Positions 1,845 to 47,090 of a stretch of 64,000 nt of DNA are shown in pieces. Both the position numbers and the translations under genes were made by a program. How positions within the stretch are numbered: position 1 is the stretch's first letter; every line of letters starts with the position of its first letter. Origin of the DNA: Eledone cirrhosa (Eukaryota); NCBI GenBank assembly GCA_964016885.1, contig OZ024741.1:378262001-378326000 (forward strand), in the 5' to 3' direction. The notes under the pieces are model-generated. The model was not told the DNA's origin and searched no databases. It worked only from the letters and a program-made list of their open reading frames with translations.

Positions 1845-4658
1845 TTGGCTAGTTAATTTTCGTCGACGCCTAGAGTTTCCCCAAGTACGTTGCCGCTCTT
1901 CCCCTCCACTAATCCTTTATAGAACGCCAAGGTGGAGTTTCCTCCGATCACATTGCCCGCCTGGTCCAGGGCCATGAGCGACTGAAGACATTCCATTCAC
2001 AAAACGCTACCTCTCGATACTTCGCTTGAACCAGGACTGCAGCTCGTCAAGGAGACGAACTGGGGAAAGACGCGTCTAACAAACGGCGACCGCACCTGAT
2101 CAACGTCGAGGAAGAAGTGAAGATGTCGTAGCCTGAACGCGTGTCTGCGCATCATCAGACACGGCATGCCCAGCCCTCCACGTAGCGGGTGTTGACAGAA
2201 GAGGGACCGCCTGACCATCGGAGCGCGTCCTTTCCACAAAAAGTGAAAAAGCAAACGCTCCAGCGCAGTCAGGCGAGTCTTAAGTCAAGGCACGACGGTC
2301 AGGCGGTAGTAGATGACGGACGCGATGTACGCATTCGCCACCTCCGCTCGACCTTTCAGGAATAGCTTCCTCTCTGCCAATTCTGGGTGAGAGAAGCCAC
2401 CCTGCTCGTCACCTCGTCCCAGTTTTTGTCCGTCTGGAGGTCCGGAGCGAACCAAACCCCTAGCAATTTAACCGGTCCGTCGGTCAAGCGCCCGACGACG
2501 CTGTTTGGTTGCATGGACCTGCCTCTCCAGGTGCCGAGCTGCAGGCCCACCGAGATTTCCTGGTTGATCATTGCTCCTGTCACCGCTTCGTATTCTCTTA
2601 TTGTAGTGCCGATCGCCTCGATGTGTTTGGCGTTCGACACCACTACGGTGACATGTTCCGCACATGCTGACTGGGATATTCCTCATGCTAGTTCGCGCAG
2701 GACACCCCCTCAACGTCTCAAGTTTGTGCAGTAACTGCTTGAGAGTCGATACGTACAAGAGGGACGAGAAGGAACATCCTTGGCAGACCGAGCGCATGAT
2801 GTTGAACGGTTCCGAAAGGTGACCGTAACACTCTCACCACAGAGCTGATGTCGCTGTGCATGGCAGCGATCCTGTCTCTGAAGACAGGCCCAAAGCCAGC
2901 CGCCCTCAGGACTGCCGCCAGATAAGGATGGTCGAACCAATCGACTGATCTAATTCGACTGATATAAATTGATCAAGGACACAGCCGTGCCAGGTTCCCT
3001 AGCTATACTCTCCACGATGTATCGCATGAGGTGGAGGATGTCGTGGATGTATATATCGGGGGGCATGTCTGCGCCTCTCTCACCAAACCACCAACGACAA
3101 GCGCCAACCTCTTTGCTAGCATCTTGGCCAAAATCTTGAACACTGCGTTTATCAGAGTTATGGGTCTGAAATTATCTATGTTATCCCCCTTGTTCGGATC
3201 TTTTTTCAGCAGCGCAACCGCTCCTCAGCTCACAGAGCTTGGAAATCTCCCGTTCTGTTGCCAGTTCCAGTAGACGACCGCGAAGAGGCCTCCGAACAAG
3301 TCTGGCATCTGTACGTAAAGTTCATAGGGCAGACAATGGAAACCAGGCGATTTATGCAGCCAATCATTGCCTCCCGTACATCAGCTTCTGTTATCGGCTT
3401 TCCGCAACACTTCCCCTCAGTGGCGGAGAGCCGCGGCAGTCCGTCGAGGTAGACACTAAATTACATCCCTCGATCCAGCCCACCTCTGCGCCCGTACAGC
3501 TGAACGAAGTTTCGCTGAAAAACTTCGCACATTTGCCCGGGATCGAGTAGCATGCGCCCGTCGTTGTCCACCAAAGACTGGATCGTGGCTGTGTTGCCAT
3601 GACGCGCCTCCGCCACTCGGGCCCATTGAACGGCTTTCGTGCCTCGTGTCTGACAGGACGCACCTTAGCTCTGACAACGCAGCCTTCCTACTTTGCATTG
3701 AAGAATTGGTCGCGATGCCTTTGCTAAGCGCCTCCTCTAATTTTCTAACTAGTTCTCCGTCTGCTCTATTTTTCTCAATAGCTAAATCCTCACTAAACCA
3801 TATTTTAATCGCTCTTTTCAGAGCAAACCACCACTTGATGTTGAAGATGGCCCCCTTCAACGCCCGCGTAACTAGTTCCCTAATCCGGTCTCTGTAGCCC
3901 TTGCGCGTGGGTAAGGACGCGTTTAGCTTCCAGTACCCGGGTCCTCGTCTATGAAGACTATCTATGTCAAGCACACAGATCACGAATTTGTTGTCCGTGA
4001 ATTGTAGACAGCCTATGCTAGACCTATCTATTTCCCTACAAAATACTATATCTAGATATGATCTGGATGACCCGAAGCGGTTTGTCCAAGTCCACATTGG
4101 CACATTCGGGAAAGCCAATCGGTACCTGTCAGACAGTTCAAAACGCCTGAGCACGTTGGTGAGGCTCTTGCTCCCTCCTCCACTATCCGCTAATCCCACA
4201 CAGTCCCAGCGTGCATCTATTCCATTCCAGTCGCACATTAACACTAAAGATTGGGACGTTCCAAGAAAGGTCTACAGACGCCGGAAGAAATCAGGCCGCC
4301 CTGCTCCTGTCGGGTCATAGACGACCACTAGCCTGAAAGCTTGCCCGTCTCCGCTGGTCACGTCCAGCACCACCAACTTACCTTCTGGCTCCAGCAGGAT
4401 GGTATCGTATGGCGAGATCCAAACCTCTCCGAAAAAGCACAGCAACTCTTCGCCCCCCCCCCGATCCAGGCGGGTGGGAGCTGCGTACACATCGTAGCCG
4501 CCGAAGATCGGTGCGAAGGCCCGTGCTTCGGAGATTCTGGTCTCGCTGATGACAACTACATCTATGTTTAGTGACCTGACGTCGTTGAGAAGGTGGCCCT
4601 GCTTCCATGACGACCCCAAGCCACGCGCATTTATGCTGCCTATTCTGAGTGAGGTCAT
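1845..4658 (-). pseudogene. T1 ORF2, APE endonuclease + reverse transcriptase, frameshifted
   Basis: MTSLRIGSINARGL, VISET, SYLDIVF and GPGYWKLN (APE domain and linker); VCQGCSFSSLLY, VKLLGVWF and GGLGMP (RT and thumb) are spread over several frames. Confidence 0.9.
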
Positions 4659-4691
4659 GTTGAATTGAGTGGAAAAGATGGGAAAGCCCAC

Positions 4692-6481
4692 TTACCTTAC
4701 TTATCGTAGAGGAAGGATGGTTTCTCCATCCTTTTCTGCTTGTGGCCTCCTCCGGAAGCATTTCCTTATAAATCCTCCTGGAGAGTGCTTGTCGGAAGTC
4801 TCCGATGTCTTTGGGGAATCTTTGTTTTAGTGTCGTGTACATTTTCTGTGTGATGCGAGTGATTTATATGTGTGGAGGTGGTGTGAACTTTTGGGTTGTT
4901 GTGTAGTCTTTTTCTGTGATGCTGGAATTGTGTTAGATGTTGTGTAATAGTTGGTTGTTGTTCAAATTTAAAGCTGTGTAGTGTGTATCGTTTTGATTGT
5001 TTTGTTTTGTTTACGTTTGTTGTTGGTTTGTTTCTGTTTCGCTTTTTGGTGACTTTTGTGGTGCTGTTGATGGTGACGTTGGGGTTAATGATGGTGATGG
5101 TGTTGGCGTTTGTGGTGATGGGAATGGTGATGCTGGTGTGGATGGTGGCATAGCTGTCCTAACGTTTTTGTTTGATAGTTTATTTCTTTCCTTCTGTATT
5201 TAGTTTTTGAAGGGGGAAGGAAGGGGATTTTATCTTTTTTGACTTATTTTTCTTTTTTTCTTTTTTCCTGATACCGGATCCCACTCCTCGTCGTCACAAC
5301 CTGTCTCCAGTTCGATACGTTGGGGAGTGGAAAATCCACAGCCATTTGTTTTGGTTGTTGTGTGGTGGATGGTGTAGGCGCTGGTGCTAGTTCTGACCCG
5401 TTGGGTGGTGGTGGTGTTGGTTTTGCTACTGTTGCTGGGGTTGTTGCTGCTACAGTTGCTGGGGTTGTTGCTGATACAGTTGTTGCTGCAATTTCTGCTG
5501 CTGCTGGTGTTGAAGGTTGAGTCACTGTGGTGGGTAAGAGAGGTGGCCTAAACATTTTAGACTGAGGGCAGAAAACCTTAGGTGTGTTACATCACCACAA
5601 ACGACAGACCTAGGCCTTCTACCCTCGACAATTACGGTGAGGTGGCTGCCGTCAGTGAGGTCTGTTATCTCTGGGATGTCCTTAATGCTTTTTGTTCCGC
5701 TTGGATCAGGAGCTCCATCCCAGATCCGGACCAGTTCGCCTGCTTTTCTTTTGCTATTTCTATTATTTTGGTGTTGGCCTCACTGCCGGCGACCGAGGAC
5801 GGCAGCCATTAGCCAGGGAATTTCGATGGCCGGTGGAACGTGGGTCACCCTGATCTTTACGAGTCTCTGGCCATAATAGCTTGGGACGAGTGTGAAGTCG
5901 TCGCTTCTTAATGGGCTCTCTGGCCTCCTGTGGTGTTCCAAAGAACACGTCCACGGTTCCATATTTCTTCCTATGTCTGATGTGGGATTTTTTGCCCACA
6001 CATGTCCCAAAGCTTTTTGGATTTGGGACTCGGATGCCCGTTCCACTCTGCGCGATTTTATGTTAATCGTCCGATAAGACACGGTGCATAGGTGCCGATG
6101 CTCCAGTTCATTAGGTGGGGGTGAGGTGACCCTGTACCCATCTTTCTTTACCATTTTTTTGGCTTCTTCTAATTCCTCCTGAGTTACCTGGAATGCTTCG
6201 CACTTTTTTGCTACTCTGGCAAAGGACAGGGTTTTTATTCTCATTGTTGATGTTGTTGTTATCGTTATTTTTGTTATTGTTAATTTAGTTTCAGTTGTGG
6301 TGGCGGTTACGTGAATGGTGTTTGGTGTGGAAGAGTTCATTTTGGCAGAATTCGTTTCGATATCACGAGATAATTTATTTTTTTCTTTTGTTTCTGTTGC
6401 CGCTGTGGTGGTGGTGTGGGTGGAGGCTTCAACACCTGCAGTCAATGGTAATGGTAGGAAATGAATGTCTGCCTGAAACAT
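4692..6481 (-). pseudogene. T1 ORF1, nucleic-acid-binding/gag-like, disrupted
   Basis: LSFARVAK, VKIRVTHVPP (RRM-like), degenerate knuckle VVCGDVTHLR near 5580-5610 and a P/T-rich linker; protein-level similarity to T2 ORF1. Confidence 0.7.
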
Positions 6482-6830
6482 ATTTAAAATATTGCTACTG
6501 CTTATATTTTTAGTGTTGGCAAACGTAGTAATATTTACAATTGTGGTGTCGATGTGAGGTGTAGTTTATGAGGAAGGCTATCAGCTACTGGGCGCAGCTG
6601 TGAGTCGGCCATTAATTTTTCAAAGATATTTTTTTTTCGTTTGATAATTATAAAAGTTTAAATTTTGGGCTCAAGGCTCCTATCTTTTTGAGTGTCCTTT
6701 TCAGAAAACAATGTATGTGCACTTATATAGAGTTAACAATAAACATTTTCCATAAATGCCAAATTTAAACAACTGAAAGTAACAAACTTTTGCGGAGCTC
6801 ACGATAATAAAATTTCCTACGTAGGTCGCC

Positions 6831-6884
<54 letters not shown>

Positions 6885-6894
6885 TATTATTATT
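6831..6894. repeat. (TAA)n switching to (TTA)n
   Basis: About 17 TAA units, then about 4 TTA units. Confidence 0.95.
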
Positions 6895-6990
6895 GTCCCA
6901 AGTCTTAACAAAATGTTTAATCCCAACATTAAGGGAATTTAGGTCAACACATATACGCGACTAACCCCATATATTCACCGAACGGACATC

Positions 6991-9900
6991 AGTCCTTCAT
7001 TGCTACCACCGCTACAACACCATCACTACTGCCATCATTACTACCACTATCCCATCACCGCCACCACCACTCCTTCATTGCTACCACCGCTACAACACCA
7101 TCACTACAGTAATACGATCACATCACCACCACTGCCTCGGTATCGACATCACCACCACCACTGTCTCAGTATCGCTACCGCCGCTATTCTCTCCCATTGC
7201 TTCCTGCTAGTTGCTGCCACCATATTATAGAATTCCTACTAAAAAAGAGGAAGGCATCAAAATATATAGATATACTCAAAAGAAAAAAGAAAAAACAAAC
7301 ATCAAAACCAAAGCAGCACAGCAACAACAGCAAAACACGAGAAAAAAAAACAAAACAAAAAAAAAAAACAAACAAAAAAACAAACGTAAAGAAAATAAGA
7401 ATGAAGAGAGAAACAAGCGGACGGACAGAGAAGAGAAGGGAAAAACCAAGTCAAACATTCGAACACTACATTACAATGAAACTTATGCTTATTCATTTTG
7501 GGGTTTTTTCTGCCTGTGTGTTTGTTTATTTGTGTTCGTCTACAGCGTGGTGATAATGCCACACAAGAGCCAAGTGGAGCGGCGAAACCACCGGAGACGG
7601 TGAATCCACAGACAGATGGCTATGTAACCATACATTCGCCAATCCTCGATAAGAGTGTTTAAATATCGAACCTAAACAGTTCGAATAACGGTGAAATGGA
7701 GACTAGAACGTCATGTGACAGACTCTCACCCAACAGGTGCTCCCTGGCTCAGCAGCAGGAACCTGACTGTCAACCAAATACTGCTGGTGTTGGAGGAAGA
7801 AGAAGAAGGAAAGGGGCCAGAACCAACTGGACGAAAGAATTGAATAGAACTGTTATGCAATGTTACCTGAAAAGTAACCCCAAGGAGAGGGGCTATAGGA
7901 GACGGATGCATAACATCTGGAACGAGATTGGTCTATTTAAATTAGATGAACAAAAATTGGCCGGGCAGGCTCGGGTAATAAGAACTAATGGGTGGAGAAG
8001 CGAGCTGGAACTGGAGGAACTGAGCAGAGAGAATAGCTTGGAGATGGAGGGTGTAGTATGCCAGACAAACGAGCCAGTGGGAAATGAAGGTGAAGAGGTC
8101 GAGAGAACGGAGGAACCACCAGAAGCAGACAATGATCTGAATACTGAGATAAATAATACCTGGAACAGAGATACGGACACGGAGGAGATGAATGCTGACG
8201 GGCTAGGACAAGATTCGGTTGACATCCTAAATTTAGTGGTAGATGAAATGAACAATGATAGTGGGAGACCTATGAACCTAAGATTTGTAGACAGGAAAAA
8301 GTTAAAAGAAACAACAGCTAAGGTAAACAAAGTCATCCCATACCTTGAGGCGAGGAGCCTTCACCAGTGTAACAATATCCTCAAAGCAACAGCAAATACG
8401 GTGAGAAAACTACTTGGTATAAAAGCGAGAGGAAACAACAGGCAAGAAAGAGCAGAGCCTTGGTAGAAGAAACGACTGAGTGGTCAAATCAAGGAAATGA
8501 GAAATGAGATAGGAAAGCTTGAGTCACTACTGAATCGGACACTAAAAAACATAGGCACTAAAAATAGACTGGAAATAAAGTACAAAACTAGTAGGAAAAA
8601 GCTAAATATTATCATAGAGGAACTGAAGCAACGCATTGTAGCAAAGAGTGCAAAAATGAGGCGATACAAGAACAGAGTCTGTCAGTATAAACAGAACCGC
8701 ATGTTCGACAACAACTAGAAGATGCTGTTTGGACAGCTTGAGGGGAAAGAAAGAGGCAACGACTTGATCCCTGAGGCGGAACAAACTAAAACATTCTGGA
8801 GAGGAATATGGGAGCATGATATTAGACATAATGACCAGGCAGGGTGGATTGAGACAGTACAGAGGGAGATCGGTGAGCAGGCATACCAACAAACTGATTT
8901 GAGTATCACAGTTGAAACTCTTAAGGGGCAGGCCAAAAACATAACCAACTGGAAATCACCAGGCCCAGATGGTGTGCAGGGGTATTGGATTAAAAATTTA
9001 ACATCCCTCCACCCGAAACTGACAGCCATATTCAATGACTGCTTGGTGTCGGGTGAGGTGCCAGAGTGGTTGACAAAAGGTACCACAATTCTGATAATGA
9101 AAGACCGAATCAAGGGTAATGATGTTACCAACTATAGACTTATTACATGTCTGTCCGTAATGTGGAAACTGTTGACGAGCATTGTGTCTGAGGAAATCTA
9201 CCATCACCTCCACACAAACAACTTGTTACCGGACGAACAGAAAGGATGCCGAAAGAAGTCACGTGGTACAAAGGACCAGTTACTTATTGATAAGATGGTA
9301 ATGGGAAATTGCAGGAGGAGACACACTGATCTTGCCATGGGATGGATAGACTACAGAAAGGCATTTGACATGGTGCCTCGTTCTTGGATCACCAAAAGCC
9401 TGGAGATCTTCAAGGTGGCAGATAACATCAGACAGTTGCTGGGCAGGAGTATGGGGTCCTGGCAGACAGAGTTGTCATCAACTGGAGAATCCTTGGGAAG
9501 CGTGAAGATCAAGAGAGGTATCTTCCAGGGAGATAGGCTGTCCCCTCTGTTGTTTGTACTTGCCCTCATGCCCTTGACCATTATACTGCGAAAAGTGAGA
9601 GCAGGATATAAGTTGGGAAAGGGAGGACTTACCATCAATCACCTCCTCTTCATGGACGATCGTAAGCTCTTCGGGAAGAGTGAGAAGGAGTTGGATGTGC
9701 TTGTTGACAGTGTCCGTATTTTCAGCAGTGATATATGTATGCAGTTTGGTATTAGTAAGTGTGGAGTCATTGTGATGAGGAGGGGTAGGTTGAGCAGAAG
9801 TAACGGAATCCAGATACCAACAGGTGAGATGATAAAGGAAAATGACTCTGAGAAAGGATACAAGTATTTGGGCGTTCTGGAGGCTGATGGCATAAAGAAC

Positions 9901-11159
9901 AAAAAAATGAAGGAATTGTTAAGAACTGAATACATTTGGAGAGTAAGGAGCGTATTGAAGTCACATCTGAACAGCAGAAATGCCATAAGCGCAGTAAATT
10001 CCCGAGATGTGTCCATTATTAGGTACAGTGCGGGAATTCTGAGATGGAATGTTGCTGAACAAAAAGAGATGGATAGGAAGACTTGAAAGCTATTGACTAT
10101 CTACAACATGTTCCATAAGAGGAGTGATGTCGATAGACTCTACCTAAGGAGATCTGAGGGTGGAAGAGGTCTCATCAGCATAGAGGACTGTGTTCAGATG
10201 GAGAAAAACAACCTATACAAATACGTGACTGATAGTAAGGAGCCAATGCTCAGAACTGTACTGAAGGAGGGGACAATAGGCCAGGGGATATCCAAGGGGG
10301 AAATAACATCAAGGAGAAAGAGCAGCCTTCAGGGAAAATCCATTCATAGTACCTTCTTTGAGAAAACTGAATTTAGAGATCCACAGACATGGAAATGGTT
10401 GAGAAGAGGAGACCTCAAAAAGGCTACAGAAGGAATGTTAATGGCTGCGCAGGAGCAGGTCCTTAAAACGAAGTGGTTGAAACACCATATTTACAAGGAG
10501 GAGGCTAGCCCACTGTGCAGGATCTGTGGAGAGAGAGAGGAGACTGTGGCTCACATTGTATCCGAGTGTAAACACCTAGCCCAGACCTACTATAAGGGCT
10601 GGAGACATGATGTGATGGGCAGGGTGATCCACTGGCACCTGTGCAAAGTAAACAATTCACCACATTATGAGAAATGGTATGAGCATAGGCCAGAGGCGGT
10701 GATGGAGAACGATCACGTGAAGGCGCTGTGGGATTTTAGGATACAGACGGACAAGAAACTGGAACACAATAGACCTGATCTGGTGGTTGTGGACAAAGAA
10801 AAAAGATCGTGTCTGATTGTGGATGTGGCCTGCCCATTCGACACGAGAGTGCAAGAGAAGGAGAGGGAGAAAATTAACCGATACCAGGACTTAAAGTGGG
10901 AGGTAAAAAGGATTTGGAAATGCCATGAAGTCAAAGTGATCCCGATTGTCATAGGCGCACTGGGGACTATCTCCAAAAGTTTCCAGGATGGTTAAAGAAA
11001 ACGGCCCCTTCACGCTTTTTGGAACGCTTCAAAAGGCATGCTTGCTGGGAACAGCAAGAACCCTCCGATACGTCCTGAATATCTGAGGCTGCAGGTAATG
11101 GCTTGATATCCATTCCAACGGACTTTCCAGTTAACCAACATCAATGACTGAGATTCAAG

Positions 11160-11160
<1 letters not shown>
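6991..11160 (+). mobile_element. R4/Dong-like retrotransposon, array copy 1 (parent A)
   Basis: CCA-rich 5' UTR, single RT-CCHC-RLE ORF, short 3' UTR and (TAA)18 tail at 11161-11214. The 5' boundary is approximate. Confidence 0.9.
7696..11086 (+). pseudogene. Dong copy 1 RT/RLE polyprotein, disrupted
   Basis: In-frame stops at 8464, 8716 and 10084, plus a frameshift near 10987. Motifs KSPGPDG, IDYRKAFD, GIFQGD, FMDD, CRIC..H..SEC, RHD, RPDL..IVDVACP..K. Confidence 0.92.
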
Positions 11161-11214
<54 letters not shown>

Positions 11215-11215
<1 letters not shown>

Positions 11216-14200
11216 TTTTCGATCAGGAATGTTGGAGTCGAAAATGGCAAAATGACTAAACGACTACAAATTATTATTTCACCACCAATACCACCACCAC
11301 TACCACGAGGAAAACTCTGGTCAAATCGACTCAAATTTATACCCCAACTACAACACCATCACTACAGTAATGCGACCACATTACCACCACCACTGCCTCA
11401 GTATCGCTACCGCCGCTATTCTCTCCCACTACCTCCTACTAGTTGCTGCTAGCACAGCACCACCACCACATTGTAGAATTCCTACTAAAAGAAGACACCA
11501 TCACTACAGTAATACGACCACATCACCACCACCACTACCTCAGTATTGCTACCGCCGCTATTCTCTCCAACTGCCTCCTGCTAGTTGCTGCTAGCACAGC
11601 ACCGCCACGACATTGTAGAATTCCTACTAAAAAAGAGGAAGGCATAACAAAATATAGATAGACTCAAAAGAAAAAACAAAAATCAAAATCAAAGCAGCAC
11701 AGCAACAACAACAAAAAAAACGTAAAGAAAATAAGAATGAAGAGAGAAACAAACGGACGGACAGAGAAAGGAAGGGAAAACTAAGTCAGACATTCGAACA
11801 CTACATTACAATGAAACTTATGCTTATTCATTTTTGGGATTTTTTCTGCCTGTTTGTTTGTTTGTTTATTTTTGTTCGTCTACAGCGTGATAATGCCACA
11901 CAAGAGCCACGTGGAGTGACGCAACCACCGGAGACGGTGAATCTACCGGTGGTTATGTAACCATACAATCTCCAATCCTCGATAAGAGTGTTTAAATATC
12001 GAATCTAAACAATTCGAATAACGGTGAAATGGAGGCTAGAACGTCATGTGGAAGACTCTCACCCAAGAGGTGCTCCTTAGCTAAGCAGCAGGGACCTGGC
12101 TGTCAACCAAATACTGCTGGTGTCGGAGGAAGAAGAAGAAGGAAAGGGACCAGAACCAACTGGACGAAAGAATTGAATAGAACTGTTATGCAATGTTACC
12201 TGAAAAGTAACCCCAAGGAGAGGGGCTATAGGAAACGGATGCATAACATATGGAACGAGATTGGTCTATTTAAATTAGATGAAGAAAAATTGGCCGGGCA
12301 GGCTCGGGTAATAAGAACTAATGGGTGGATAAGCGATCTGGAACTGGAGGATCTGAGCAGAGAGATTAGCTTGGAGATGGAGGGTGGAGTATGCCAGGCA
12401 AACAAGCCAGTGGGAAATGAAGGTGATGAGGTCGAGAGAACGGAGGAACCACCCGAAGCAGACAATGATCTGAATACTGAGATAAATAATACCTGGAACA
12501 GAGATACGGCCACTGAGGAGATGAATGCTGACGAGCTAGGAGAAGATTTGGTTGATATCCTAAATTTAGTGGTAGATGAATTGAACAATGATAGTGGGAG
12601 ACCTATGAACCTAAGATTTGTAGACAGGAAAAAGTTAAAAAAACCAACAGCTAAGGTAAACAAAGTCATCCCATACCTTGAGGCGAGGAGCCTTCACCAG
12701 TGCAAACATATCCTCAAAGCAACAGCAAATACGGTGAGGAAACTACTTGGTATAAAAGCGAGAGGAAACAACAGACAAGAAAGAGCAGAGCCTTGGTGGA
12801 AGAAACGACTGAGTGGTCAAATCAGGGAAATGAGAAATGACATTGGAAAGCTTGAGTCCCTACTGAATGAGACACTAAAAAACATAGCCACTAAAAATAG
12901 ACTGGAAATAAAGTACAAAACTAGGATGAAAAAGCTAAATATTTTAATAGAGGAACTTAAGCAACGCATTGCAGCAAAGAGTGCAAAAATCAGGCGATAC
13001 GAGAACAGAGTCAGTCAGTATAAACAGAACCGCATGTTCGACAACAACCAGAAGATGCTGTTTGGACAGCTTGAAGGGAAAGAAAGAGGCAAATACTTGA
13101 TCCCTGAGGCGGAACAAACTAAAACATTCTGGAGAGGAATATGGGAGCAGGATGTTAGACATAATGACCAGGCAGGGTGGATTGAGACAGTAGAGAAGGA
13201 GATCAGTGAACAGGCATACCAACATACTGATTTGAGTATCACAGTTGAAACTCTTAAGGGGCAGGCCGAAAAACTAACCAACTGGAAATCACCAGGCCCA
13301 GATGGTGTGCAGGGATATTGGATTAAATATATAACATCCCTCCACCCGAAACTGACAACCATGTTCAATGACTGCTTGATGTCAGGTGAGGTACCAGAGT
13401 GGTTGACAAAAGGTACCACAGTTCTGATAATGAAAGACCGAATCAAGGGTAATGATGTTACCAACTATAGACCTATCACATGTCTGTCCGTAATGTGGAA
13501 ACTGTTGACGAGCATTGTGTCTGAGGAAATCTACCATCACCTCCACACAAACAACTTGTTACCGGACGAACAGAAAGGATGCCGAAAGAAGTCACGTGGT
13601 ACAAAGGACCAGTTACTTATTGATAAGATGGTAATGGGGAATTGCAGGAGGAGACACACTGTTCTTGCCATGGGATGGATAGACTACAGAAAGGCATTTG
13701 ACATGGTGCCTCATTCTTGGATCACCAAAAGCCCGGAGATCTTCAAGGTGGCAGATAACATCAGACAGTTGTTGGGCAAACGTATGAGGTCCTGGGAAAC
13801 AGAGTTGACATCAACTGGAGAATCCTTGGGAAGCGTCAATATCAAGAGAGGTATCTTCCAGGGAGATAGCCTGTCCCCTCTGTTGTTTGTCCTTGCCCTG
13901 ATGCCCCTGACCAGTGTACTGCGAAAAGTGAGAGCAGGATACAGGTTGGGGAAGGGAGGACTTACCATCAATCACCTCCTCTTCATGGACGATCTTAAGC
14001 TCTTCGGGAAGAGTGAGAAGGAGTTGGATGTGCTTGTTGACACTGTCCGTACTTTTAGCATTGATATATGTATGCAATTTGGTATTAGTAAGTGTGGAGT
14101 CATTGTGATGAGGAGGGATATGTTGAGCAGAAGTAACGGAATCCAGATACCAACAGGTGAGATGATAAAGGAAATTGACTCTGAGGAAGGATACAAGTAT

Positions 14201-15492
14201 TTGGGCGTTCTGGAGGATGATGGCATAAAGAACAAAAAAATGAAGGAATTGTTAAGAATTGAATACATTCGGAGAGTAAGGAGCGTATTGAAGTCACATC
14301 TGAACAGCAGAAATGCCATAAGCGCAGTAAATTCCCGAGCTGTGTCTATTATTAGGTACAGTGCGGGAATTCTGAGATGGAATGTTGCTGAACAAAAAGA
14401 AACGGATAGGAAGACTAGAAAGCTATTGACTATCTACAACATGTTCCATAAGAGGAGTGATGTCGATAGACTCTACCTAAGGAGATCTGAGGGTGGAAGA
14501 GGTCTCATCAGCATAGAGGACTGTGTTCAGATGGAGAAAAACAACCTATACAAATACGTGACTGATAGTAAGGAGCCAATGCTCAGAACTGTACTGAAGG
14601 AGGGGACAATAGGCCAGGGGATATCCAAGGGGGAAATAACATCAAGGAGAAAGAGCAGCCTTCAGGGAAAATCCATTCATAGTACCTTCTTTGAGAAAAC
14701 TGAATTTAGAGATCCACAGACATGGAAATGGTTGAGAAGAGGAGACCTCAAAAAGGCTACAGAAGGAATGTTAATGGCTGCGCAGGAGCAGGTCCTTAAA
14801 ACGAAGTGGTTGAAACACCATATTTACAAGGAGGAGGCTAGCCCACTGTGCAGGATCTGTGGAGAGAGAGAGGAGACTGTGGCTCACATTGTATCCGAGT
14901 GTAAACACCTAGCCCAGACCTACTATAAGGGCTGGAGACATAATGTGATGGGCAGGGTGATCCACTGGCACCTGTGCAAAGTAAACAATTCACCACATTA
15001 TGAGAAATGGTATGAGCATAGGCCAGAGGCGGTGATGGAGAACGATCACGTGAAGGCGCTGTGGGATTTTAGGATACAGACGGACAAGAAACTGGAACAC
15101 AATAGACCTGATCTGGTGGTTGTGGACAAAGAAAAAAGATCGTGTCTGATTGTGGATGTGGCCTGCCCATTCGACACGAGAGTGCAAGAGAAGGAGAGGG
15201 AGAAAATTAACCGATACCAGGACTTAAAGTGGGAGGTAAAAAGGATTTGGAAATGCCATGAAGTCAAAGTGATCCCGATTGTCATAGGCGCACTGGGGAC
15301 TATCTCCAAAAGTTTCCAGGATGGTTAAAGAAAACGGCCCCTACACGCTTTTTGGAACGCTTCAAAAGGCATGCTTGCTGGGAACAGCAAGAACCCTCCG
15401 ATACGTCCTGAATATCTGAGGCTGCAGGTAATGGCTTGATATCCATTCCAACGGACTTTCCAGTTAACCAACATCAATGACTGAGATTCAAG

Positions 15493-15553: not shown

Positions 15554-15554
<1 letters not shown>

Positions 15555-32590: not shown

Positions 32591-32832
32591 TTTTCTTATT
32601 AACCACAAGGGTTTACATAAAGTAGACATTAAGGTCAGTACAGGACAATACAGGACGGTACAAATGGGCATTTCTGCGTGTAAAAAAAACAGAGGATGTA
32701 ATAAAATAACAAAGAAAAATTCCCCAATAGGTGTGAGACTTCCGAGGGACATTTGTGGAGAAAGCCCAATAAAAGACCACAGTGACCCTGACAACCAAGG
32801 CAAGTACCCTCTCCCAGTTTTCCACCTTTAAT

Positions 32833-35800: not shown

Positions 35801-35875
35801 GTTGAGCAGGTGACCCTGCTTCCATGACGACCCCAAGCCACGCGCATTTATGCTGCCTATTCTGAGTGAGGTCAT
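32833..35875 (-). pseudogene. T2 ORF2, APE-RT-C-terminal cysteine-rich domain
   Basis: SINARGL, KSPGLDGLP, NFRPITLLN, LDQSKAFDRV, SVRQGCP and CPRC..ETVLHALVQC; frameshifts; ~350 bp of APE deleted at ~35462 relative to T1. Confidence 0.9.
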
Positions 35876-35907
35876 GTTTAATATAGTGGAAAAATGGGAA
35901 TGACCAC

Positions 35908-37664: not shown

Positions 37665-38520
37665 TATTTTTCGTAGGCATGTTTTTTTTGTTTAAAATAA
37701 ATATTGGGCACAAAACCCCAATAAGCGGATATATAACTCCGAAGGGCCAAATAACGGGCAGAAAGACTCCACTCACGAGGAGGATGGTGTTTTTGTCTAC
37801 AATTTGGTTAAAGTTTTAAACAATTTACAATTGTTATAGCGGTCAAAATTTACAATACCTTACAGAGTCGAGCCTCCGTCAACCATAGCATTCAATAATA
37901 ATAATAATAATAATATTAGTAGAATTATGTTATAAGTACGATCCGTGTACACAATTTATTTTAGAAGGCCTATTTGTGATTCGTCCATTATGTTTCTACT
38001 TCGTTTTCTTAGTGTTTTTATTATTGTTTTGTCGATGGTGTTCGCTTTATTTCAAATCTTGTGGGAGCTTCGTTATGGGCGTCCATGATGTTATTCCGCC
38101 CGCTCCTATTATAACATAATTTTCTTCATTAAAATATCGGACCACATGTGTAAATAAAGAAACTGAATATCAGCCGCACCACTACTCAGATTTTTAAATC
38201 AAAACAAAAAGAAAAACGATATATGTAAGTAACAAACTCTATTGATTATATTACACATACATGTATTATAAACACAACGAACATTGTACACAAAACAAAC
38301 ATGCAGATATGCAGACGTTCGCTCTTTGAACTTAAAGAAAAAAACTATTTGAAGAAGAGAAGCAGTCGCAGACCGGACTTATTTCGAGGATTAATTTTTT
38401 TTTAATCTGGTATTCCCTAACACGAAAATTCGACATATTATTTCACCACTTATCTCTACAAATAATCTGACACTAGTTGTGAGAACTGCATAAATATTTT
38501 TATATATTTACCCATTACAA

Positions 38521-38714
38521 GGGAGCGGGGGTTTGGCAGTATCGGTAGAGGGTCGGACGCCATGTTTTGTAGCATAGGGCTACGGCCCTTTGCGTTCTGA
38601 TTTCAAATCCGCCGAGGTTAACTTTGCCTTTGATCCTTACGGGGTCGATAAAATAAAGTACCAGTAATGTACTGAATAATTGCTGGCCTTGTGCCAAGAG
38701 TAGAAACAATTATT
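38521..38714 (+). mobile_element. tRNA-derived SINE, short-tail family
   Basis: A-box TGGCAGTATCGG, B-box-like TTCAAATCC, central TTTGCCTTT..GGGGTCGATAAAATAAAGTACCAG, tail CCTTGTGCC..AGAAACAATTATT; several copies in this window. Confidence 0.85.
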
Positions 38715-38829
38715 TGAAGAAAAGAAACAGACATAGATCGGAAAACACACTGTTTATTTTGGGGGATAAGTTCTGTTTAATCAAAAATCTGACTAGGTTC
38801 ATTAGGTTGCAAAGATCAAATTTTGATTA

Positions 38830-39420
38830 ATCTCAGTTCTGCATGGATCGATTATGAAAAAGCCTTTGACAGCATACCACACTCATGGATTCTGAAATCA
38901 CTGGACATCTTCTAAATCTCACCTGTGATCTCAAACTTCCTGAAACACAATATGTCATTATGGACGACAAATCTCCAATTGTCTCATTCCACTGGGGTAC
39001 TGTGCTCCGGGAATGTAAACATCAACTGTGGTATATTACAGGGTGACTCACTTTCACCCTTGCTTTTCTGCATAGTTTAATACCCCTTACACCCGAGCTT
39101 AATAGAACAGGGTACGGTGATAGACTTGACAACAAAAAAATAAGCCCCCTATTTTATATGGATGATTTGAAGCTATATTTCAAAGATAATTGTTTCTACT
39201 TTTGGCACAAGGCCAGCAATTATCTCAGTGCATTACTGGTACTTTATTTTATCGACCCCGGAAGGCAAAGTTAACCTAGGCGGGATTTGAACTGAGAATG
39301 GCAAGGGCCGTAACTCTATGCATCAAAGCATGGCGTCCAACCCTCTACCGATATTGCCAATTCACGACGAACTAGAAGGCCTTTTGCGGAAGTAAAAACG
39401 CTTAGCGATGACATCAGAAC
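38830..39420 (+). pseudogene. RT fragment of a third R4/Dong-like family, interrupted by a SINE
   Basis: AWIDYEKAFDSIPHSWI, NCGILQGDSLSPLLFC and LFYMDDLKLY, then the SINE, then DELEGLL..SDDIR. Confidence 0.8.
39186..39364 (-). mobile_element. tRNA-derived SINE, short-tail family
   Basis: Reverse complement of the 38521 element. Confidence 0.85.
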
Positions 39421-39519: not shown

Positions 39520-42500
39520 TAGCTAAAATCAAAAACAGCAGCAGCGGCAACATCACCACTAGTAAACGATGTTACTGGCCTTGAAAAATAAAAAATAAAA
39601 AATAAAAAATAAAAAATAAAAAATAAAAAATAAAAAATAAAAAATAAAAAAAAACTAAGTCAGGCATTCAAACATTACAATGAAACTTACGTTTATTTTT
39701 TTATGTTCTTATTTATTTATTTGTTTATTTATATGTTCGTCTATAGCGTGATGGTGACACGCTAAAATCACCGGTGGTGATGAAATTACCGGGGGTTATG
39801 TAACCATACATTCACCAATCCTCGATATCAGTGTTTAAATGTCGAACCTAAGCAGTTTGAATAACGGTGAAAAGGAGACTGGGACGTTATGTGAATAACT
39901 CTCACCCAGCAGGTGCTCCCTGGCCCAGCTTCAGGGACCTGGCTGTCATCCAAATACTGCTGGTGTTGGAGGAAGGGGAAGAAGGGAAGGGACCAGAACC
40001 AACTGGACGAAAGAAATGAATAGAGCTGTTATGCAATGTTACCTGAAGAGTAACCCCATGCAAAAAGGCCATAGGAAACGGATGCATAACATCTGGGACA
40101 AGATTGGTATATTTAAAAATTGTCCGGGCAGGCTCAGGTAATAAGAACTAATGGATGGATAAGCGAGTTGAAACTGGAGGAACTGAGCAGAGAGATTAAG
40201 TTGGAAATGGAGAGTGGAGTATTCCAGACAAACGAGCCAGTGGGAAATGAAGGTGAACGGGTTGAGAGACCTGAGGACGCATCAGAAGCAAACAATGATC
40301 TGATGCTGAAATTAATAACATCTGGAACAAAGATACGGGCCCTGACTAAGTGAATGCTGACGGGCTAGGACAAGATTTGGTTGATATCCTGAACTTAATA
40401 ATAGATAAAATGAACGATGATATTGGAAAACCTATGAACCTAAGATTTGTAGAGGGGAAAAAAGTTAAAAGAAACAACAGCTAAGGTAAACAAAGTCATC
40501 CCACACCTTGAGGCGAGGAACCTTCACCAATGCAACACTATCCTCAAATCAACCGCAAATGAGGTGAGGAAATTCCTTGGCATAAACAACGGAAGAAACA
40601 ACAAACAAGAAAGATCAGAACCTTGGTGGAAGAAATGACTGAATGGTCAAAAAAGGAAATGAGAAAAGACATTGGAAAGCTTGAGTCCTTACTCAATGGG
40701 ACAATACAAAATATAATCATTAAAGATAGATTAGAAATAAAATACAAAACTAGGGCGGAAAAGCTAAATATTATCATAGATGAACTGAAGCGACGCATAG
40801 CAAAAAATGCAAAGATTAGGCGGTATGAGAACAGAGTCAGTTAGTATAGACATAACCATGCAGAAGATGTTGTTTGGACAGGTTGAAGGGAAATAATGAG
40901 GCAATGGCGTGATCCCTGAAGCGGAACCGATTAAGACATTCTGGAGAGGAATATGGGAACAGGATGTTGAACATAATAGTCAGGCAGTGGGGATTGAGAC
41001 AGGTCAAAAGGAGATTAGTGGACAAGCACACCAACAACCTGATTTGAGTATCACAGTTGAAATTCTTAAAGGGCAGACCAAAGAACTAATCAACTGGAAA
41101 TCACCAGGCCCAGATGGTTTGCAAGTGTATTGGATTAAAAACATAACATCCTTCCACCCGAAACTGACAACCAGGTTCAATGACTGTTGATGTCGGGTGA
41201 GGTACCAGAGTGGTTGACAATAGGTACCACAGTTCTGATAATGAAAGACCGAATCAAGGGTGATGATGTTACCAACTATAGACCTATCACATGTCTGTCC
41301 GTAATGTGGAAACTGTTGACAAGCATTGTGTCTGAGGAAATCTACCATAACCTCCACATAAACAACGTGTTACCGGACGAACAGAAAGGATCTCGAAAGC
41401 AATCCCGTGGTACAAATGACCACTTACTTATTGATAAGATGGTAATGAGGAATTGCAAGAGGAGGCACACTGATCTTTCCATGGGATGGATAGGTTACAA
41501 AAAGGCATTCGACACGGTTCCTCAATCTTGGATAACCAAATGCCTAGAGATCTTCAAGATGGCAGATAACATCAGACAGTTGTTGAGCAAAAGTATGAAG
41601 ATCTGGGAAACAGAGTTAATGTGGGGCGGAGAAACATTGGGAGGCGTGAAGATCAAGAGAGGTATCTTCCAGGGAGATAGTTTGTCCTTTCTGATGTTTG
41701 TCCTTGCCCTGATACTCCTGACTGTTATATTGCCAAAAGTCAGAGCAGGATACAAACTGGGAAAGTGAGAGCTTCCCATCAACCACCTCCTCTTCATGGA
41801 CGACTTTAGACTCTTTGGAAAGAGTGAGGAGTTGGATGTATTTGTTGACGCTGTCCGTATTTTCAGCAATGATATATGTATAGGATTTGGTATTAATAAG
41901 TGTAGAGTCCTACTGATGAAGAGAGGGTAAATTGAGCAGAAGCAACAGATTCCAGGTACCAACAGGTGAGATGATAAAGGAAATTGACACTGAAGAGGGG
42001 TACAAATATTTAGGTGTTCTGGAGTCAGATGACATCAAGAACAAAAAAAATGAAGGAATTGATAAGATCTGAGTAGATTAGGAGAGTAAGGAGCGTATTA
42101 AAATCACATCTAAATAGTATGAGTGTCATAAGTGCAGTAAATTCCCGAGGTGTGTCTATTATTCGGTACATAGCGGGAATTCTGAAATGGAATGTTGCTG
42201 AACAAAAAGAAATGGATAGGAAGAATAGGAAGCAATTGACTATCTACAACATGTTCCACAAGAGGAATGATGTCGATAGACTCTACTTAAAGAGATCTGC
42301 AGGTGGAAGTAATCTTATCAGCATAGAGGACTGTGTTCAGATGAAGAAAAACAACCTGCACAAATAGGTGACTTACAGTAGGGAGCCACTTCTCAAAATT
42401 GTACTGAAAGACATACTAGACCAAGGGATGTCCAAGGAGGAATTAACTACACGGAAGAAGAGCAACTTCATGAAAAATCCCTTCATAGTACCTTCTTTAA

Positions 42501-43317
42501 TAAAACTGAATTAAGATATCTACAGACATGGAACTGGTTAAAAAGAGGAGACCGTAAAAAAGCTACATAATGAATGTTAATAGCTGGGCAAGCGCAAGCC
42601 CTAAAAACGAAGTGGGTGAAACACCATATTGACAAGGATGAGGCTAGCTCACTGTGTAGGATCTGTGGAGAGAGAGGAGACTGTGGCTCACATTGTATCC
42701 GAGAGTAAACACCTAGCCCAGACTCACTATAAAGGCTTGAGACATGATGTGATGGGCAGGGTGGACCACTGGCACCTATGCAAAGTAAACCATTTACCAC
42801 ATTCTGACAAGTGGTATGAGCATAAGCCAGAGTCAGTGATAGAAAATGATCAGGTGAAGGTGCTGTGGCATTTTAGGATACAGACGGACAAGAAACTGGA
42901 AGACAATAGACCTGACCTGGTGGTTTTGGACAAGAAAAAAAGATCGTACCTGATTGTGGATGTGGCCTGCCCATTCGACACGACAGTGCAAGAGAAGGAG
43001 AGGGAGAAAATTAACCGATACCAGGACTTAAAGTGGGAGGTAAAAAGGATTTGGAACTGCCATGAAGTCAAAGTGGACCCGATTGTCATAGGCGCACTAG
43101 CTACTATCTCAAAGAGGTTCCAGGGATGCTTAAAGTAAACTGGCCCCGGCCCGCTTGTTGGAACACTTCAAAAGGCATGCTTGCTGGTAACAGCAAGAAC
43201 CCTCCGATATGTCCTGAATATCTGAGGCTGCAGGTAGTGGCTTGATATTCATTTCAACAAACTTTCCAGTTAACTAACATCAATGAGTGAGACTCAAAGA
43301 ACAACAATAATAATAAT

Positions 43318-43361: not shown

Positions 43362-45106
43362 GAATTTCTTTATTGGCCACAAGGGCTGACATCAAGAAAA
43401 CAATTACAGACGGCACAGCACGGTAGAGGACGGTACGATGTAGGTTTTGTGCGTGTAAATATTTTTATTATTTATATAAGAAAAGAAAAAGAGACATAGA
43501 AACATATATATATATAAACAATAAAAATTTAAATTGAAAAAATGAAAAATTCCCCAATAGGGGGTAAACCTCCGAGGGTTACTCGTAGCGAAAACCATAC
43601 AAAAGACCACGGCCACGCTGACCGCCAGGACAAGCGCCCTCTCTCAATTTTTCCATCTCTCAAACTACAGACGTATATTCAAAGGGGTCGCGTTCACTCG
43701 GACCATTCTCGCTACATTCACCCACCTTTCAACAAACTTGCTAGAAGGCAGCACCTGCCTCTCCACCCTGATTTTCCTCTTCAAGTGAAACTTGAAAAAG
43801 TTAATTAGGGATTCGCTGAGGAGAAAAGTGTCTGTCTTTAACCCTTTCAACCTTGTCCACCACAGAATCTCTTTCGCCATGGACATCAGGCAGATGAAAA
43901 CTGCCTGCCCTTCATCCTCGAAGGAAGACGGCGAGACAATCTGCACATTGGACTCAGTCGATAACAATGCTCGGGCACTGAACGAATGCGTGCACGACGG
44001 TTTCGTCGCTCTGCGCGCATCTCGGACAGGTTCGGCTGACGGCACTTCCGCGCCTGTAGAGGTTATCTCTAACCGGCAGCGCTCCCCGGTAGCACAGTTA
44101 GGCCAGGGATTTTTGGAAGTTATCTATAGGCCATGGGCTGAAAGTTCTCCGGAAGAGAGCAAACAGCTGATCATCTTCGACGCCCATGATCTCTCCGAGA
44201 ACGTCGTCGCTCTTCCCCTCCACTAGTCCTCTATAGAACGCCGAAATGGATGTTCCACCGATATGGTGCCCAGCTGGAGACATTCTAGTTTCCAGGCACT
44301 ATCCCTCGGTCTTTTTCTGGTCCAGGACTGCAGGTCCGTCAAGGAGACGAGCTGTGGGAAAACGTGCCTGTCGAACGGCGACCACACCTGTTCACCGTCA
44401 AGGAAACACCAGAGATGTCGCAGCCTCAGCGCATGTTTGCCCATCATCAGCCATGGCATGGCCAGTCCTCCACCCAACGGGTGTTGACAGCAGATGGATC
44501 GTCTGACCATGGGAGCGCGTCTCTTCCACAAAAAGCGGAATAGGAGGCGCTCCATTTTGGTGAGATTTGGGCCGGAGCAAGGGACGACGGTGAGGCGGTA
44601 GCAGATGACGGATGCGATGTACGCATTCGCCACCTACGCACGGCCTTTCAGGGACGCCTTTCTCTCTGCCCATTTCTGGGTGAGGGAGGCCCCCTTGATC
44701 GTCACTTCGTTCCAGTTTTTCTGCATCTGGAGGTCCGGTCCGAACCAGACCCCGAGCAATTTAACTGGTCCGTCGGTCCAACGCCCCACGACGCTGTCGG
44801 ACGGCATGTACTTGCCTCTCCAGGTGCCGAGCTGCAATCCCACCGACTTTTCTGGTTTATCTTTGCTCCTGTCACCTCTTCGTATTCCTTGAGAGCAATG
44901 CCGAGCATTTGGCGTATCTGGTCCTTGACACCAGCACGGTGATATCGTCGGCATAAGCCGACTCGGATTTCCCGCATCCTAGTTCGCGTGGGACGCCCCT
45001 CCTCGCCCCCAATTTGAGCAGTAACGGCTCGAGAGCCAATACGTACTAAAGGGACTAGAGGGTCAACCCTAGTGGACTGAGCGCATGATGCTGAACGGCT
45101 GCGAAC
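43362..45106 (-). mobile_element. Tx1/L1-like copy T3, 5'-truncated
   Basis: RT-thumb and C-terminal homology (VKLLGVWFG, GGLAMP, LINFFKFHLKRKIRVE); the 3' end with AATAAA abuts the Dong C tail. Confidence 0.88.
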
Positions 45107-45169: not shown

Positions 45170-46085
45170 CCGACGGCTTCAGCCGAAATGGACTCAACAA
45201 TTGATTTCAACGGGGGTCTGTCGTTCATTCCCGTTGCCAAGTCCAGGAATTCAATACCAGAATCTCTGGAGATGACATCGGGGTAGTAGAGCTTGCGCCC
45301 CCTGTTATTAGTGATTGCTTCTAGTTTCCAAAGCACTAATGGGGATATAGCATCGTAGGTGGCACGATGGCAGAGGCCAGCAAACCTGTCTCTCTTCTAA
45401 CGTACTACGTGGGATGCCGGCATATATTTCTCTCATAATGCAGTGGCCAAATCACACGAGCAAGTTGCACCATATTCATTGAGATTTTAGCAAATGTATT
45501 GGGGGTGGGAGGTAGCACTTCCCACTCCTCCTCACCTTGCTTTCCAGGTGGTCCACCATACCACCTCTTTCACAACGGTCACAAGACAGAGGATATTGGC
45601 CTTCCCTGCCTTGCCAAAAGAAAGCGGTGGGTCGATCTTCACTATTGACTCGACCAATGGCTGGTCCGTTCTACACGCGATAAAAGCTGTTCGACATAAT
45701 TCCACAATTCAGTAATTCACGGACATTGGACGCCAGAGTACAGAACAGTTTCGTAGCTGAGTGTGCATCTTTGGGAATTTATCCGTGTCCACGGCTCGAA
45801 GGTCCTCCGGAGCAGACTGGGCAGTTCGACTTCGTCGACACCCTGACTCTCTCCGAGTGCGTCATCACACTTGCCCACCACTAATCCTCTATAGAACTCG
45901 ACAGTGGAAATGCTACTGAGTGCATTGCCCGCCTAGTAGAGAGTTGAAATTATCAGACAACGTTCCAGATACCCGTTCCCCATCTCGGTTTCTTCTTCAC
46001 CCATGATTGTAGCTCAGACAAAAAGACGAGCTGTGAAAAGGCCCGTCTGATAAACGGCAACCACACTTGTTCAGTGTTTAGGCAC
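45170..46085 (-). mobile_element. Tx1/L1-like fragment T4 (ORF2 C-terminus and probable 3' UTR), decayed
   Basis: LWNYVEQLLSRV, ESIVKIDPP and KEVVWWT match the T2/T3 C-terminus. Confidence 0.7.
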
Positions 46086-46104
46086 AATATCTGAAGATAA
46101 TCAT

Positions 46105-47090
46105 ATATTCTATATTACTGGCCGCAAGGTCAGAACATAAGGACAATACAAAAAGAGGTGTCAATGGGGGTTTATATATAATCGAGCATAAATTATAAAA
46201 AATTAACAAAGAATATCAATAACAGAATTCCCCAAAGGGGCAGCATACCACTCAGGGATGACGTTAGGAATCCCACAAATCCCAACCCTCCCTCATCTCC
46301 AAGAGCATCCTAGAAAAGTGCCCCTCTCTCCCTCCATCCTTCCAGCCTATTTAGATACAAACTACTCCTCCATTTTATTCTTTCCAATTGCTACTTCTTT
46401 ATTGAATGGTATGGATTCTACTCTAATCGAGAGCGCCCCACCACCTATTGTTGACAATGGCCCCTGTCAACAGCAGCTTAACTAATTTGCTAATCCGGTC
46501 GCTGTAGACTTTATGCGCCGGGACCCACGTGTTAAGCTTCCAGTAGCCAGATCCCTGAACACGTGTTCTATCTAACAAACTTTTGGTCTGAATATGAGAC
46601 ATTCTGTAATTGTGGACACCCTACACTATCTTTTCCACTAATCTAATTAGAAACCTTTCTAAGTATGATCTAGATGTCCCTGAAGTGGCGCATTAGGGAA
46701 ATCGAGTCGATACCTGTAAGACATTTGAAACTAGCTGCTCAGGTTGTTGAGGCGTTTACACCCCTTACCCCACACTTCTATCGGCTCCTCCCACACATCC
46801 CCAGCGTGCGTCCAAGATTCCGTTCCAGTCCACTGATAAGACTAAAGGGCGAGACGTTTCTAGAAAGACTTCCAGACGCCTAAAGAAATCAGGCCGCCCG
46901 GCCCCAATCTAAAATCACCACCTTCACTATTGTTCACATCTAGAACCTCCAGCTTACCGTCCGGGTCCAGGAAGATCGTCCGTACCTCCAGACCCAGGCC
47001 TTTCCTAAACAGCACTGCCACCCTGCCTCCATTCCAGACCGACTAAAAGATGCGTAGATCCCAAAGTATTCGAAAATAAGGGCTAGTGCC
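46105..47090 (-). mobile_element. Tx1/L1-like fragment T5: 3' UTR joined to APE region (large internal deletion)
   Basis: 3'-end motif CCTTGCGGCCAGTAAT and the AATTCCCCAA motif shared with T2/T3; APE homology (GYWKLN, IFLDPDGKL) at 46360-47090. Confidence 0.65.

What the first reader, a model, noticed from the sequence alone, without database searches (positions are those of the whole stretch)
1845..47090. Self-perpetuating (TAA)n landing pad shared by two unrelated retrotransposon clades in opposite orientations
Seen: about 45 kb is almost entirely retroelement, joined at TAA tracts (6831, 11161, 15494, 19834, 24163, 28495, 32559, 37894, 43300). All R4/Dong-like (RLE) copies from three families are on +, and all five Tx1-like (APE) pieces are on -. 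T2 has TAA on both sides, inside the D2 tail. T3's 3' end abuts the C tail, and the T1 and T2 5' ends both read (ATT)n-G. Established: Dong elements target TAA repeats, and some Tx1-clade elements (Kibi, Koshi) are microsatellite-specific. Inference: an ATT-specific Tx1 family uses Dong tails as targets, so each insertion regenerates targets. The fixed bi-strand arrangement could also act as a piRNA-cluster-like trap.
Basis: partly seen in the sequence, partly recalled or inferred. Interest (0 to 1): 0.7.

Follow-up and report, generated by a model that had tools for sequence, protein, structure and literature searches.

The report
Opposed retrotransposons multiply one shared microsatellite
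Two unrelated kinds of jumping gene sit in the same ATT/TAA repeat all over this animal genome and face opposite ways, and full-length insertions leave repeat on both sides, which likely explains this 45-kb pile-up without one kind needing to seek out the other's tail.

Summary
An L1-group, Tx1-like LINE (APE endonuclease) reads along (ATT)n and Dong-like LINEs (RLE endonuclease) read along (TAA)n: 337 of 341 and 279 of 282 element-tract contacts. All 57 full-length Tx copies scored, and 12 of 19 truncated ones, have (ATT)n at the 5' end. A tract inside an RTE 5' UTR gave empty and filled sites: empty median 69 bp, six single full-length Tx insertions 84-123 bp, with repeat on both sides, so target regeneration is supported. 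Corrections: (1) a special taste for Dong tails is weak: 30 of 80 Tx tails abut one, against 21-45% of control tracts; (2) which element came first is not shown; (3) D2-D4 are near-identical D5/D1 chimeras, best read as unequal-crossover copies, so three tracts are duplicates; (4) several junctions lack TAA; (5) the piRNA-trap idea is untested. Dong at TAA, Tx1 at microsatellites and antiparallel TRAS/SART are in print; I found no ATT-targeting Tx1 or shared RLE/APE microsatellite in the searched library. This scan already noted the system at eight or more other places in this genome.

The parts
1842..6832 (-). T1: Tx1-like LINE, intact head (ATT)n-G at 6832, ORF1 and ORF2 broken, 3' end (about 0.8 kb) and tail lost
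6833..6883 (.). (TAA)17, head-to-head junction T1/D1
6884..11162 (+). D1: Dong-like RLE LINE, 5'-truncated inside its 5' UTR right at an internal short TAA run
11163..11213 (.). (TAA)17
11214..15495 (+). D2: chimera (5' part as D5, last 1.05 kb as D1); ORF 11996-15328 with RT, CCHC knuckle and RLE motifs, frameshifted near its end
15496..15552 (.). (TAA)19, copied with the unit
15553..19835 (+). D3: copy of the same chimera (4 differences from D2)
19836..19883 (.). (TAA)16, copied with the unit
19884..24164 (+). D4: copy of the same chimera (8-10 differences from D2, D3)
24165..24212 (.). (TAA)16, copied with the unit
24213..28494 (+). D5: Dong-like LINE, 5'-truncated in the UTR, own 3' end
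28495..28548 (.). TAA tract with one CAA
28549..29523 (+). C': 5'-truncated copy of the second Dong-like family; tail missing
29524..32558 (+). C: second Dong-like family (about 36-41% amino-acid identity to D), 5' part missing
32559..32588 (.). (TAA)10, tail-to-tail junction C/T2
32590..37893 (-). T2: Tx1-like LINE with both ends, other ORF1/5' variant than T1, internal deletion in ORF2, frameshifts
37894..37915 (.). (TAA)6-7 at the head of T2
38525..38714 (+). SINE; a second copy on - at 39186-39360
38741..39180 (+). old Dong-like RT fragment (47% to D ORF 533-638)
39650..43300 (+). D': D subfamily (86-87% to D1-D5), preceded by (AAAAATA)n, not TAA
43306..43361 (.). imperfect TAA tract, tail-to-tail junction D'/T3
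43362..45105 (-). T3: 5'-truncated Tx1-like LINE (74-75% to T1/T2), no tract at its 5' end; a 55-bp Dong piece follows at 45106-45160 on +
45538..46078 (-). T4: old Tx1-like ORF2 fragment, no tract
46100..47056 (-). T5: old Tx1-like remnant (endonuclease part joined to a 3' end), no tract

Best explanation
A Tx1-like APE LINE group and Dong-like RLE LINE families both sit in (ATT/TAA)n microsatellites in opposite orientations, likely because each primes reverse transcription on a different strand of the repeat, and full-length insertions leave repeat on both sides, which likely lets chains such as this one grow from a single tract. Shown: target sequence, orientation, repeat on both flanks with net gain, several elements inside one known tract, clustering. 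Inferred: Tx nicks the (TAA)n strand and Dong the (TTA)n strand; the 5' repeat is kept by annealing of the new cDNA to the target; any long tract serves, whoever made it (Dong, Tx, SINE, CR1-like tails, RTE 5' UTR). After build-up, unequal crossover between D1 and D5 (inferred) added three units, and deletions removed several ends.
For: Clades: D best matches R2 proteins (E 5e-30, L1 2e-13; fold search) and keeps CCHC, RH(D/N), PD..D and K..Y motifs; Tx ORF2 is APE+RT+zf-RVT and best matches L1 ORF2 (E 2e-52, R2 9e-21). Target: of 80 position-ordered T2-family 3' ends, 78 have 6 or more ATT units downstream; 57 of 57 heads have 5 or more upstream and 12 of 19 truncated copies have ATT at the break, against 0.24% of random 40-mers. 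Dong: 24 of 29 truncation points have TAA upstream (by eye). Orientation at 491 distinct tracts: Tx 337 with the ATT strand, 4 against; Dong 279 with the TAA strand, 3 against. Regeneration: RTE 5' UTR tract, 604 empty sites, first 100 median 69 bp, range 48-84; six single full-length Tx insertions give 84-123 bp for left plus right (p 1.5e-5); one Dong insertion has tracts on both sides. 14 of 32 Tx-filled sites hold two or more elements, all in the expected orientation; Tx-Tx 6 of 32 exceeds the 4.6% base rate (p 0.003) but fits a doubled rate (p 0.07). 58 of 100 D 3' ends have another within 20 kb, 8 expected. Chimera: D1 equals D3 after position 3204, D5 equals D3 before about 3235.
Against: 7 of 19 truncated Tx copies have no ATT at the 5' break, and 4 of 8 truncated insertions that could be judged in the RTE tract lost the left repeat block, so regeneration is not universal. 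Five or more junctions in the window have no tract. Only six clean filled sites were measured and tract length also drifts by slippage. The samples come mostly from one contig, and neighbours in one array are not independent. Junction phase cannot separate enzyme nicking from annealing of an RNA tail. No nicking or insertion assay exists here.
Confidence: 0.75

Rival explanations
1. Dedicated parasitism: the Tx family recognises Dong 3' ends (tail plus adjacent sequence) and inserts there by preference.
For: 30 of 80 T2-family tails abut a Dong 3' end against about 21% of tracts without a Tx end (ratio 1.7, 95% 1.0-2.9); in 14 of 19 tail-to-tail pairs the Tx copy looks younger.
Against: A second control gives 13 of 29 (Fisher p 0.51). 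50 of 80 tails abut something else; 33 sit in the RTE tract. Dong D and C ends alone number at least 14,484 against 48,932 long tracts. In 5 of 19 pairs Dong looks as young or younger.
Confidence: 0.1
2. Orientation and target come from RNA-DNA pairing rather than from a strand-specific nuclease: each RNA ends in the repeat it read through, anneals to the complementary strand at a loosely placed nick, and so copies its founder's orientation.
For: Tx 3' ends join ATTATT in 135 of 148 cases and heads follow ..ATT in 68 of 69, as expected if repeats are part of the RNA at both ends; truncated copies, which lack a 5' repeat, often lose the left block. Sister Tx 3' variants carry other repeats.
Against: 12 of 19 truncated Tx copies and 24 of 29 truncated Dong copies still have the repeat upstream; swapping APE domains switches TRAS/SART specificity (PMC7265360, passages read). 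The two readings can both contribute.
Confidence: 0.25
3. The array is kept by the host as a two-strand piRNA trap: read-through from either clade makes antisense RNA to the other.
For: Geometry only: tail-to-tail junctions are common (30 of 80), so read-through would be antisense to the partner.
Against: The same geometry arises wherever the two clades share a tract, down to two-element sites, so it needs no selection; the locus is one of many such arrays.
Confidence: 0.08
4. The D2-D4 units are an assembly artefact, not a real tandem amplification.
For: 99.8-99.9% identity; differences include single-base frameshifts.
Against: Each unit has its own substitutions (2-4) and tract length (17, 19, 16, 16), and the chimeric build is what unequal crossover gives.
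Confidence: 0.15

Closest known systems
Dong (R4 clade; Bombyx Dong, DongAg, snail DongBg, ostracod Dong)
   Same: RT plus C-terminal RLE, one ORF, (TAA)n target on both sides (PMC3812793, PMC7998251, passages read). Dong-R4 is listed among recently active LINEs of Octopus vulgaris (PMC13282606, passages read).
   Different: Here two divergent families (D, C) share a 5' UTR and share their target with an APE element. No reference sequence was available for a tree.
Kibi (TC)n, Koshi (TTC)n and crocodilian Tx1 families in (TTCC)n/(TTTC)n
   Same: Tx1-clade APE LINEs that insert in microsatellites (PMC4494074, passages read).
   Different: Target here is (ATT)n, which is not named in the passages read; figure and supplement of that paper could not be seen, and Repbase was not available.
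TRAS and SART in (TTAGG/CCTAA)n of Bombyx mori
   Same: Two LINE families enter one simple repeat in opposite orientations by using opposite strands (PMC7265360, passages read; lead from an earlier scan note).
   Different: TRAS and SART are both APE elements at telomeres; here an RLE and an APE element share dispersed microsatellites that the elements themselves lengthen.
Tx1-Mar and SINEU (crocodilians)
   Same: Tx1 group and SINEs sharing a target, tandem insertions around a duplicated target (PMC4494074, passages read).
   Different: Their target is a Mariner transposon sequence, not a simple repeat.

Membership tests
R4/Dong clade | Single ORF with RT and C-terminal CCHC knuckle plus PD-(D/E)xK endonuclease, no APE | tested here: met
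R4/Dong clade | Insertion in (TAA)n, repeat also at 5' truncation points | tested here: met
   24 of 29 truncation points; 75 D ends in the RTE tract
R4/Dong clade | N-terminal diverged SANT/Myb-like domain without zinc fingers (PMC7998251) | tested here: inconclusive
   A conserved helical module at residues 58-128 is present; its fold class was not settled
R4/Dong clade | RT groups with Bombyx Dong and R4 in a tree | not testable with these tools
   no named reference sequence was returned
Tx1 clade (L1 group) | ORF2 with N-terminal APE, RT and C-terminal zinc-binding region, closest to L1 | tested here: met
Tx1 clade (L1 group) | Separate ORF1 with a CCHC knuckle (feature recalled, not from a call) | tested here: met
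   CX2CX4HX4C in ORF1 of L063; no Pfam family assigned
Tx1 clade (L1 group) | Target-sequence preference | tested here: met
Tx1 clade (L1 group) | RT groups with Xenopus Tx1L, Kibi, Koshi rather than with L1 proper | not testable with these tools
   no named Tx1 reference among homologues; 'Tx1-like' is therefore a working label
piRNA cluster | Dense uniquely mapping piRNAs from a long precursor | not testable with these tools
   no small-RNA data could be laid on the locus

The most novel reading that the evidence does not exclude
A genome-wide ecosystem in which an APE and an RLE retrotransposon clade, plus the dominant SINE, divide the two strands of one microsatellite, make and lengthen most of their own landing sites, and thereby force convergent Dong/Tx neighbours whose read-through RNA silences the other clade; the Tx lineage is also switching targets (ATT to TTC and others), which would expose how an APE nuclease changes specificity.
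Probability: 0.15. Interest if true: 0.72.

Novelty: new variant of a known kind. Interest (0 to 1): 0.42.

Why it matters
It gives a concrete, countable cause for LINE hot spots and for long AAT microsatellites in a 3-Gb genome (likely an octopod, inferred), adds (ATT)n to the targets of Tx1-like elements, and supplies young intact copies (about a dozen 1,139-aa ORF2s among 80 loci) of a microsatellite-specific APE enzyme for tests of strand and sequence choice. The RTE 5' UTR tract is a natural assay with hundreds of empty and filled sites. It is not a new kind of element: each ingredient has a published parallel.

Tried and rejected
Small-RNA or expression test: no RNA holder listed. Laying DNA contigs and RAD reads on 36500-39700 gave no empty allele or order of insertion; repeats swamped the result. 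SINE 3' end versus Tx 3' ends: not significant (shuffle p 0.05-0.11; a Dong end gave 0.04), so a shared tail is not claimed. N-terminal Myb/SANT test: no such Pfam family among 38 aligned members; a single-sequence model (pLDDT 62) gave only generic helical bundles; the Atlas gave no result for this part and only unnamed APE-RT clusters for Tx ORF2. Named references for a tree: none. Rejected: five independent D insertions; a foreign 5' piece on D2-D5 (it is internal 5' UTR of a D subfamily). The first T2 sample included the tail in the query and was not used for tail counts. Literature searches that found no ATT-targeting Tx1 or RLE/APE shared microsatellite: (open-licence PMC and bioRxiv only; Kojima and Fujiwara 2004, Repbase Reports and the supplement of PMC4494074 not seen and may list such a family). 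Papers seen as passages only: PMC4494074, PMC4640811, PMC13282606, PMC9115989, PMC3812793, PMC7265360, PMC4758252, PMC7998251, PMC1950540.
Full report
Observation. The window lies at G000:C2:378262001-378326000 in a 3.0-Gb genome. It is likely an octopod genome; this is inferred from size, repeat content and earlier scan notes, not from a label. Nine TAA tracts lie where stated and none other within 20 kb either side. Protein mapping puts all Dong-like pieces on + and all five Tx-like pieces on -. Order: T1(-), D1-D5(+), C'(+), C(+), T2(-), spacer with SINEs and an old Dong-like fragment, D'(+), T3(-), T4(-), T5(-). The junctions C'/C, spacer/D', T3/Dong piece, T4 and T5, and the left end have no TAA tract.

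The two clades. The D ORF has RT and C-terminal CCHC and PD..D/K..Y motifs conserved across 38 aligned homologues and matches R2 proteins better than L1 by sequence and by fold. An intact relative of T1/T2 (L063) has ORF1 with a CCHC knuckle and a 1,139-aa ORF2 with APE, RT and zf-RVT, closest to L1 ORF2. Clade names rest on architecture and target; no named reference was available for a tree.

Target and orientation genome-wide. Exact end motifs occur 2,841 times for the T2 family, 10,497 for D and 3,987 for C; perfect tracts of 8 or more ATT number 48,932. I fetched 80 of the first 100 listed T2-family ends (contig C1, 2.8-72 Mb; three near-duplicates dropped, 17 not fetched). 78 of 80 have 6 or more ATT units downstream. 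57 are full-length and all have 5 or more ATT upstream of the first G; of 19 truncated copies 12 have ATT at the break and 7 do not; 4 complex copies were set aside (truncated ones judged by eye). Background is 0.24%. For Dong, 24 of 29 true truncation points among 60 loci have TAA upstream (by eye). Over 491 distinct tracts in all loci then held, Tx lies with the ATT strand 337 times and against 4; Dong with the TAA strand 279 times and against 3. Six of the seven exceptions were inspected: two locally inverted tracts, one 5' inversion, two hits to a SINE inside my reference, one Dong nested in a Dong. These loci were chosen around elements and tracts, so the table shows orientation, not frequency.

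Are Dong tails special? 30 of 80 T2-family tails abut a Dong 3' end, 19 another Tx, 26 other DNA, 5 other classes. In 90 control tracts (30 from each of three end classes, C1 0.2-23 Mb) 11, 4 and 1 are Dong tails, weighted 24%, or 21% without tracts that are Tx tails; ratio 1.7, 95% interval 1.0-2.9. A control chosen by a G/C-rich upstream flank gives 13 of 29 (p 0.51). So the excess is small and could come from clustering: 58 of 100 D ends have another within 20 kb, 8 expected. Both orders of insertion give the same tail-to-tail picture. A crude age proxy makes Tx the younger in 14 of 19 pairs and Dong in 5; in the window C (98%) and T2 (97%) are similar and D' (95%) looks younger than T3 (93%), on few relatives.

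Does insertion regenerate the target? An RTE-type LINE carries an (ATT)n tract in its 5' UTR with fixed borders (RTE label from the translated motifs as recalled). 604 sites are empty; the first 100 span a median 69 bp, range 48-84. 33 have a Tx 3' end at the right border and 75 a D 3' end at the left. I read all 33 (32 fetched, one held as L138; two are duplicates, leaving 32). Six single full-length Tx insertions with both anchors give 84, 87, 87, 93, 108 and 123 bp, with 4 or more units on each side; two further clean ones and L138 lacked the exact anchor and were not measured. A Dong insertion also has tracts on both sides. 14 of 32 hold two or three elements, all Dong on one strand and all Tx on the other: chains start inside one tract. 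The rate of second insertions fits a doubled target (pattern sensitivities differ, so this is rough). Against: of 8 truncated Tx insertions that could be judged, 4 lost the left block.

Local history. D2-D4 differ by 4-10 bases, while dispersed D copies reach at most 96.8% identity; D1 matches D3 only after position 3204 and D5 only before about 3235. Two independent insertions, D1 and D5, were therefore most likely amplified by unequal crossover into three chimeras, carrying three tracts along. D1 and D5 are both truncated inside the 5' UTR, D1 exactly at an internal short TAA run.

Mechanism. Tx 3' ends join ATTATT in 135 of 148 cases and the commonest head follows ..ATT in 68 of 69. In target-primed reverse transcription the primer strand is the one complementary to the RNA, so Tx must prime on the (TAA)n strand and Dong on the (TTA)n strand (established TPRT logic). 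Whether nuclease specificity or annealing of a read-through repeat tail sets this is not separable here; for TRAS/SART the nuclease does (PMC7265360, passages). Other suppliers of tracts are a CR1-like 3' end, the SINE and the RTE UTR.

Comparison and verdict. Dong at TAA, Tx1 at TC, TTC and TTCC/TTTC and antiparallel TRAS/SART are published; Dong-R4 and L1-Tx1 are listed as recently active in an octopus, with unexplained hot spots. Seven searches found no ATT-targeting Tx1 or RLE/APE shared microsatellite, with Repbase and one supplement unseen. The scan noted this system at eight or more other loci of this genome; those notes are unchecked and not counted as support. Real, well supported as a new variant of known behaviour; the special-partnership and piRNA parts are weak or untested. 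Interest 0.42.

Noticed in passing
L306, L307 versus L173, L283: The C and D Dong-like families, only about 40% alike in protein, share a 5' UTR (90% over 696 bp), which suggests UTR swapping.
   Followed up: partly
window 35950-37893 and 4740-6832; L095, L129: The Tx family keeps one ORF2 and 3' end but has several different heads and ORF1 regions (T1 type, T2 type, others), all starting with G after ATT.
   Followed up: partly
L137, L175, L340: Sister Tx 3' variants are followed by (TTC)n, (AAT)3 or (ATCT/ATGT)n instead of ATT; 142 of 152 distinct Tx-like ends have ATT. Possible target switches.
   Followed up: partly
window 38525-38714 and many loci: The abundant SINE lies with the ATT strand in 63 of 63 tract contacts and has (ATT)3 before 31 of 108 heads (biased sample). 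It may use the Tx enzymes, but 3' similarity was not significant.
   Followed up: partly
L240 and 604 sites: An RTE-type LINE carries an ATT tract in its 5' UTR and so spreads landing sites for Dong and Tx.
   Followed up: yes
L267 and others: A CR1-like LINE ends in ATT repeats but shows no sign of targeting them (15 tails, 2 mixed downstream contacts); a seed supplier.
   Followed up: partly
L034, L043, L057, L206, L218; window 6884: Dong 5' truncations recur at internal TAA-like spots of the 5' UTR, suggesting microhomology with the target.
   Followed up: no
L123-L125 (C1:66.40-66.42 Mb); L103: Near-identical tandem Tx units (5.9 kb; 395 bp) like the D2-D4 duplication here.
   Followed up: no
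L295: A full-length Dong inserted in a very short TAA-like site inside a Tx ORF2, antiparallel.
   Followed up: no
window 45161-45500 and 37916-38524: Unassigned stretches inside the array; the second is moderately repeated in a related organism's contigs.
   Followed up: no
L077, L078: Two T2-family 3' ends sit in a 35-bp tandem repeat with no ATT tract.
   Followed up: no
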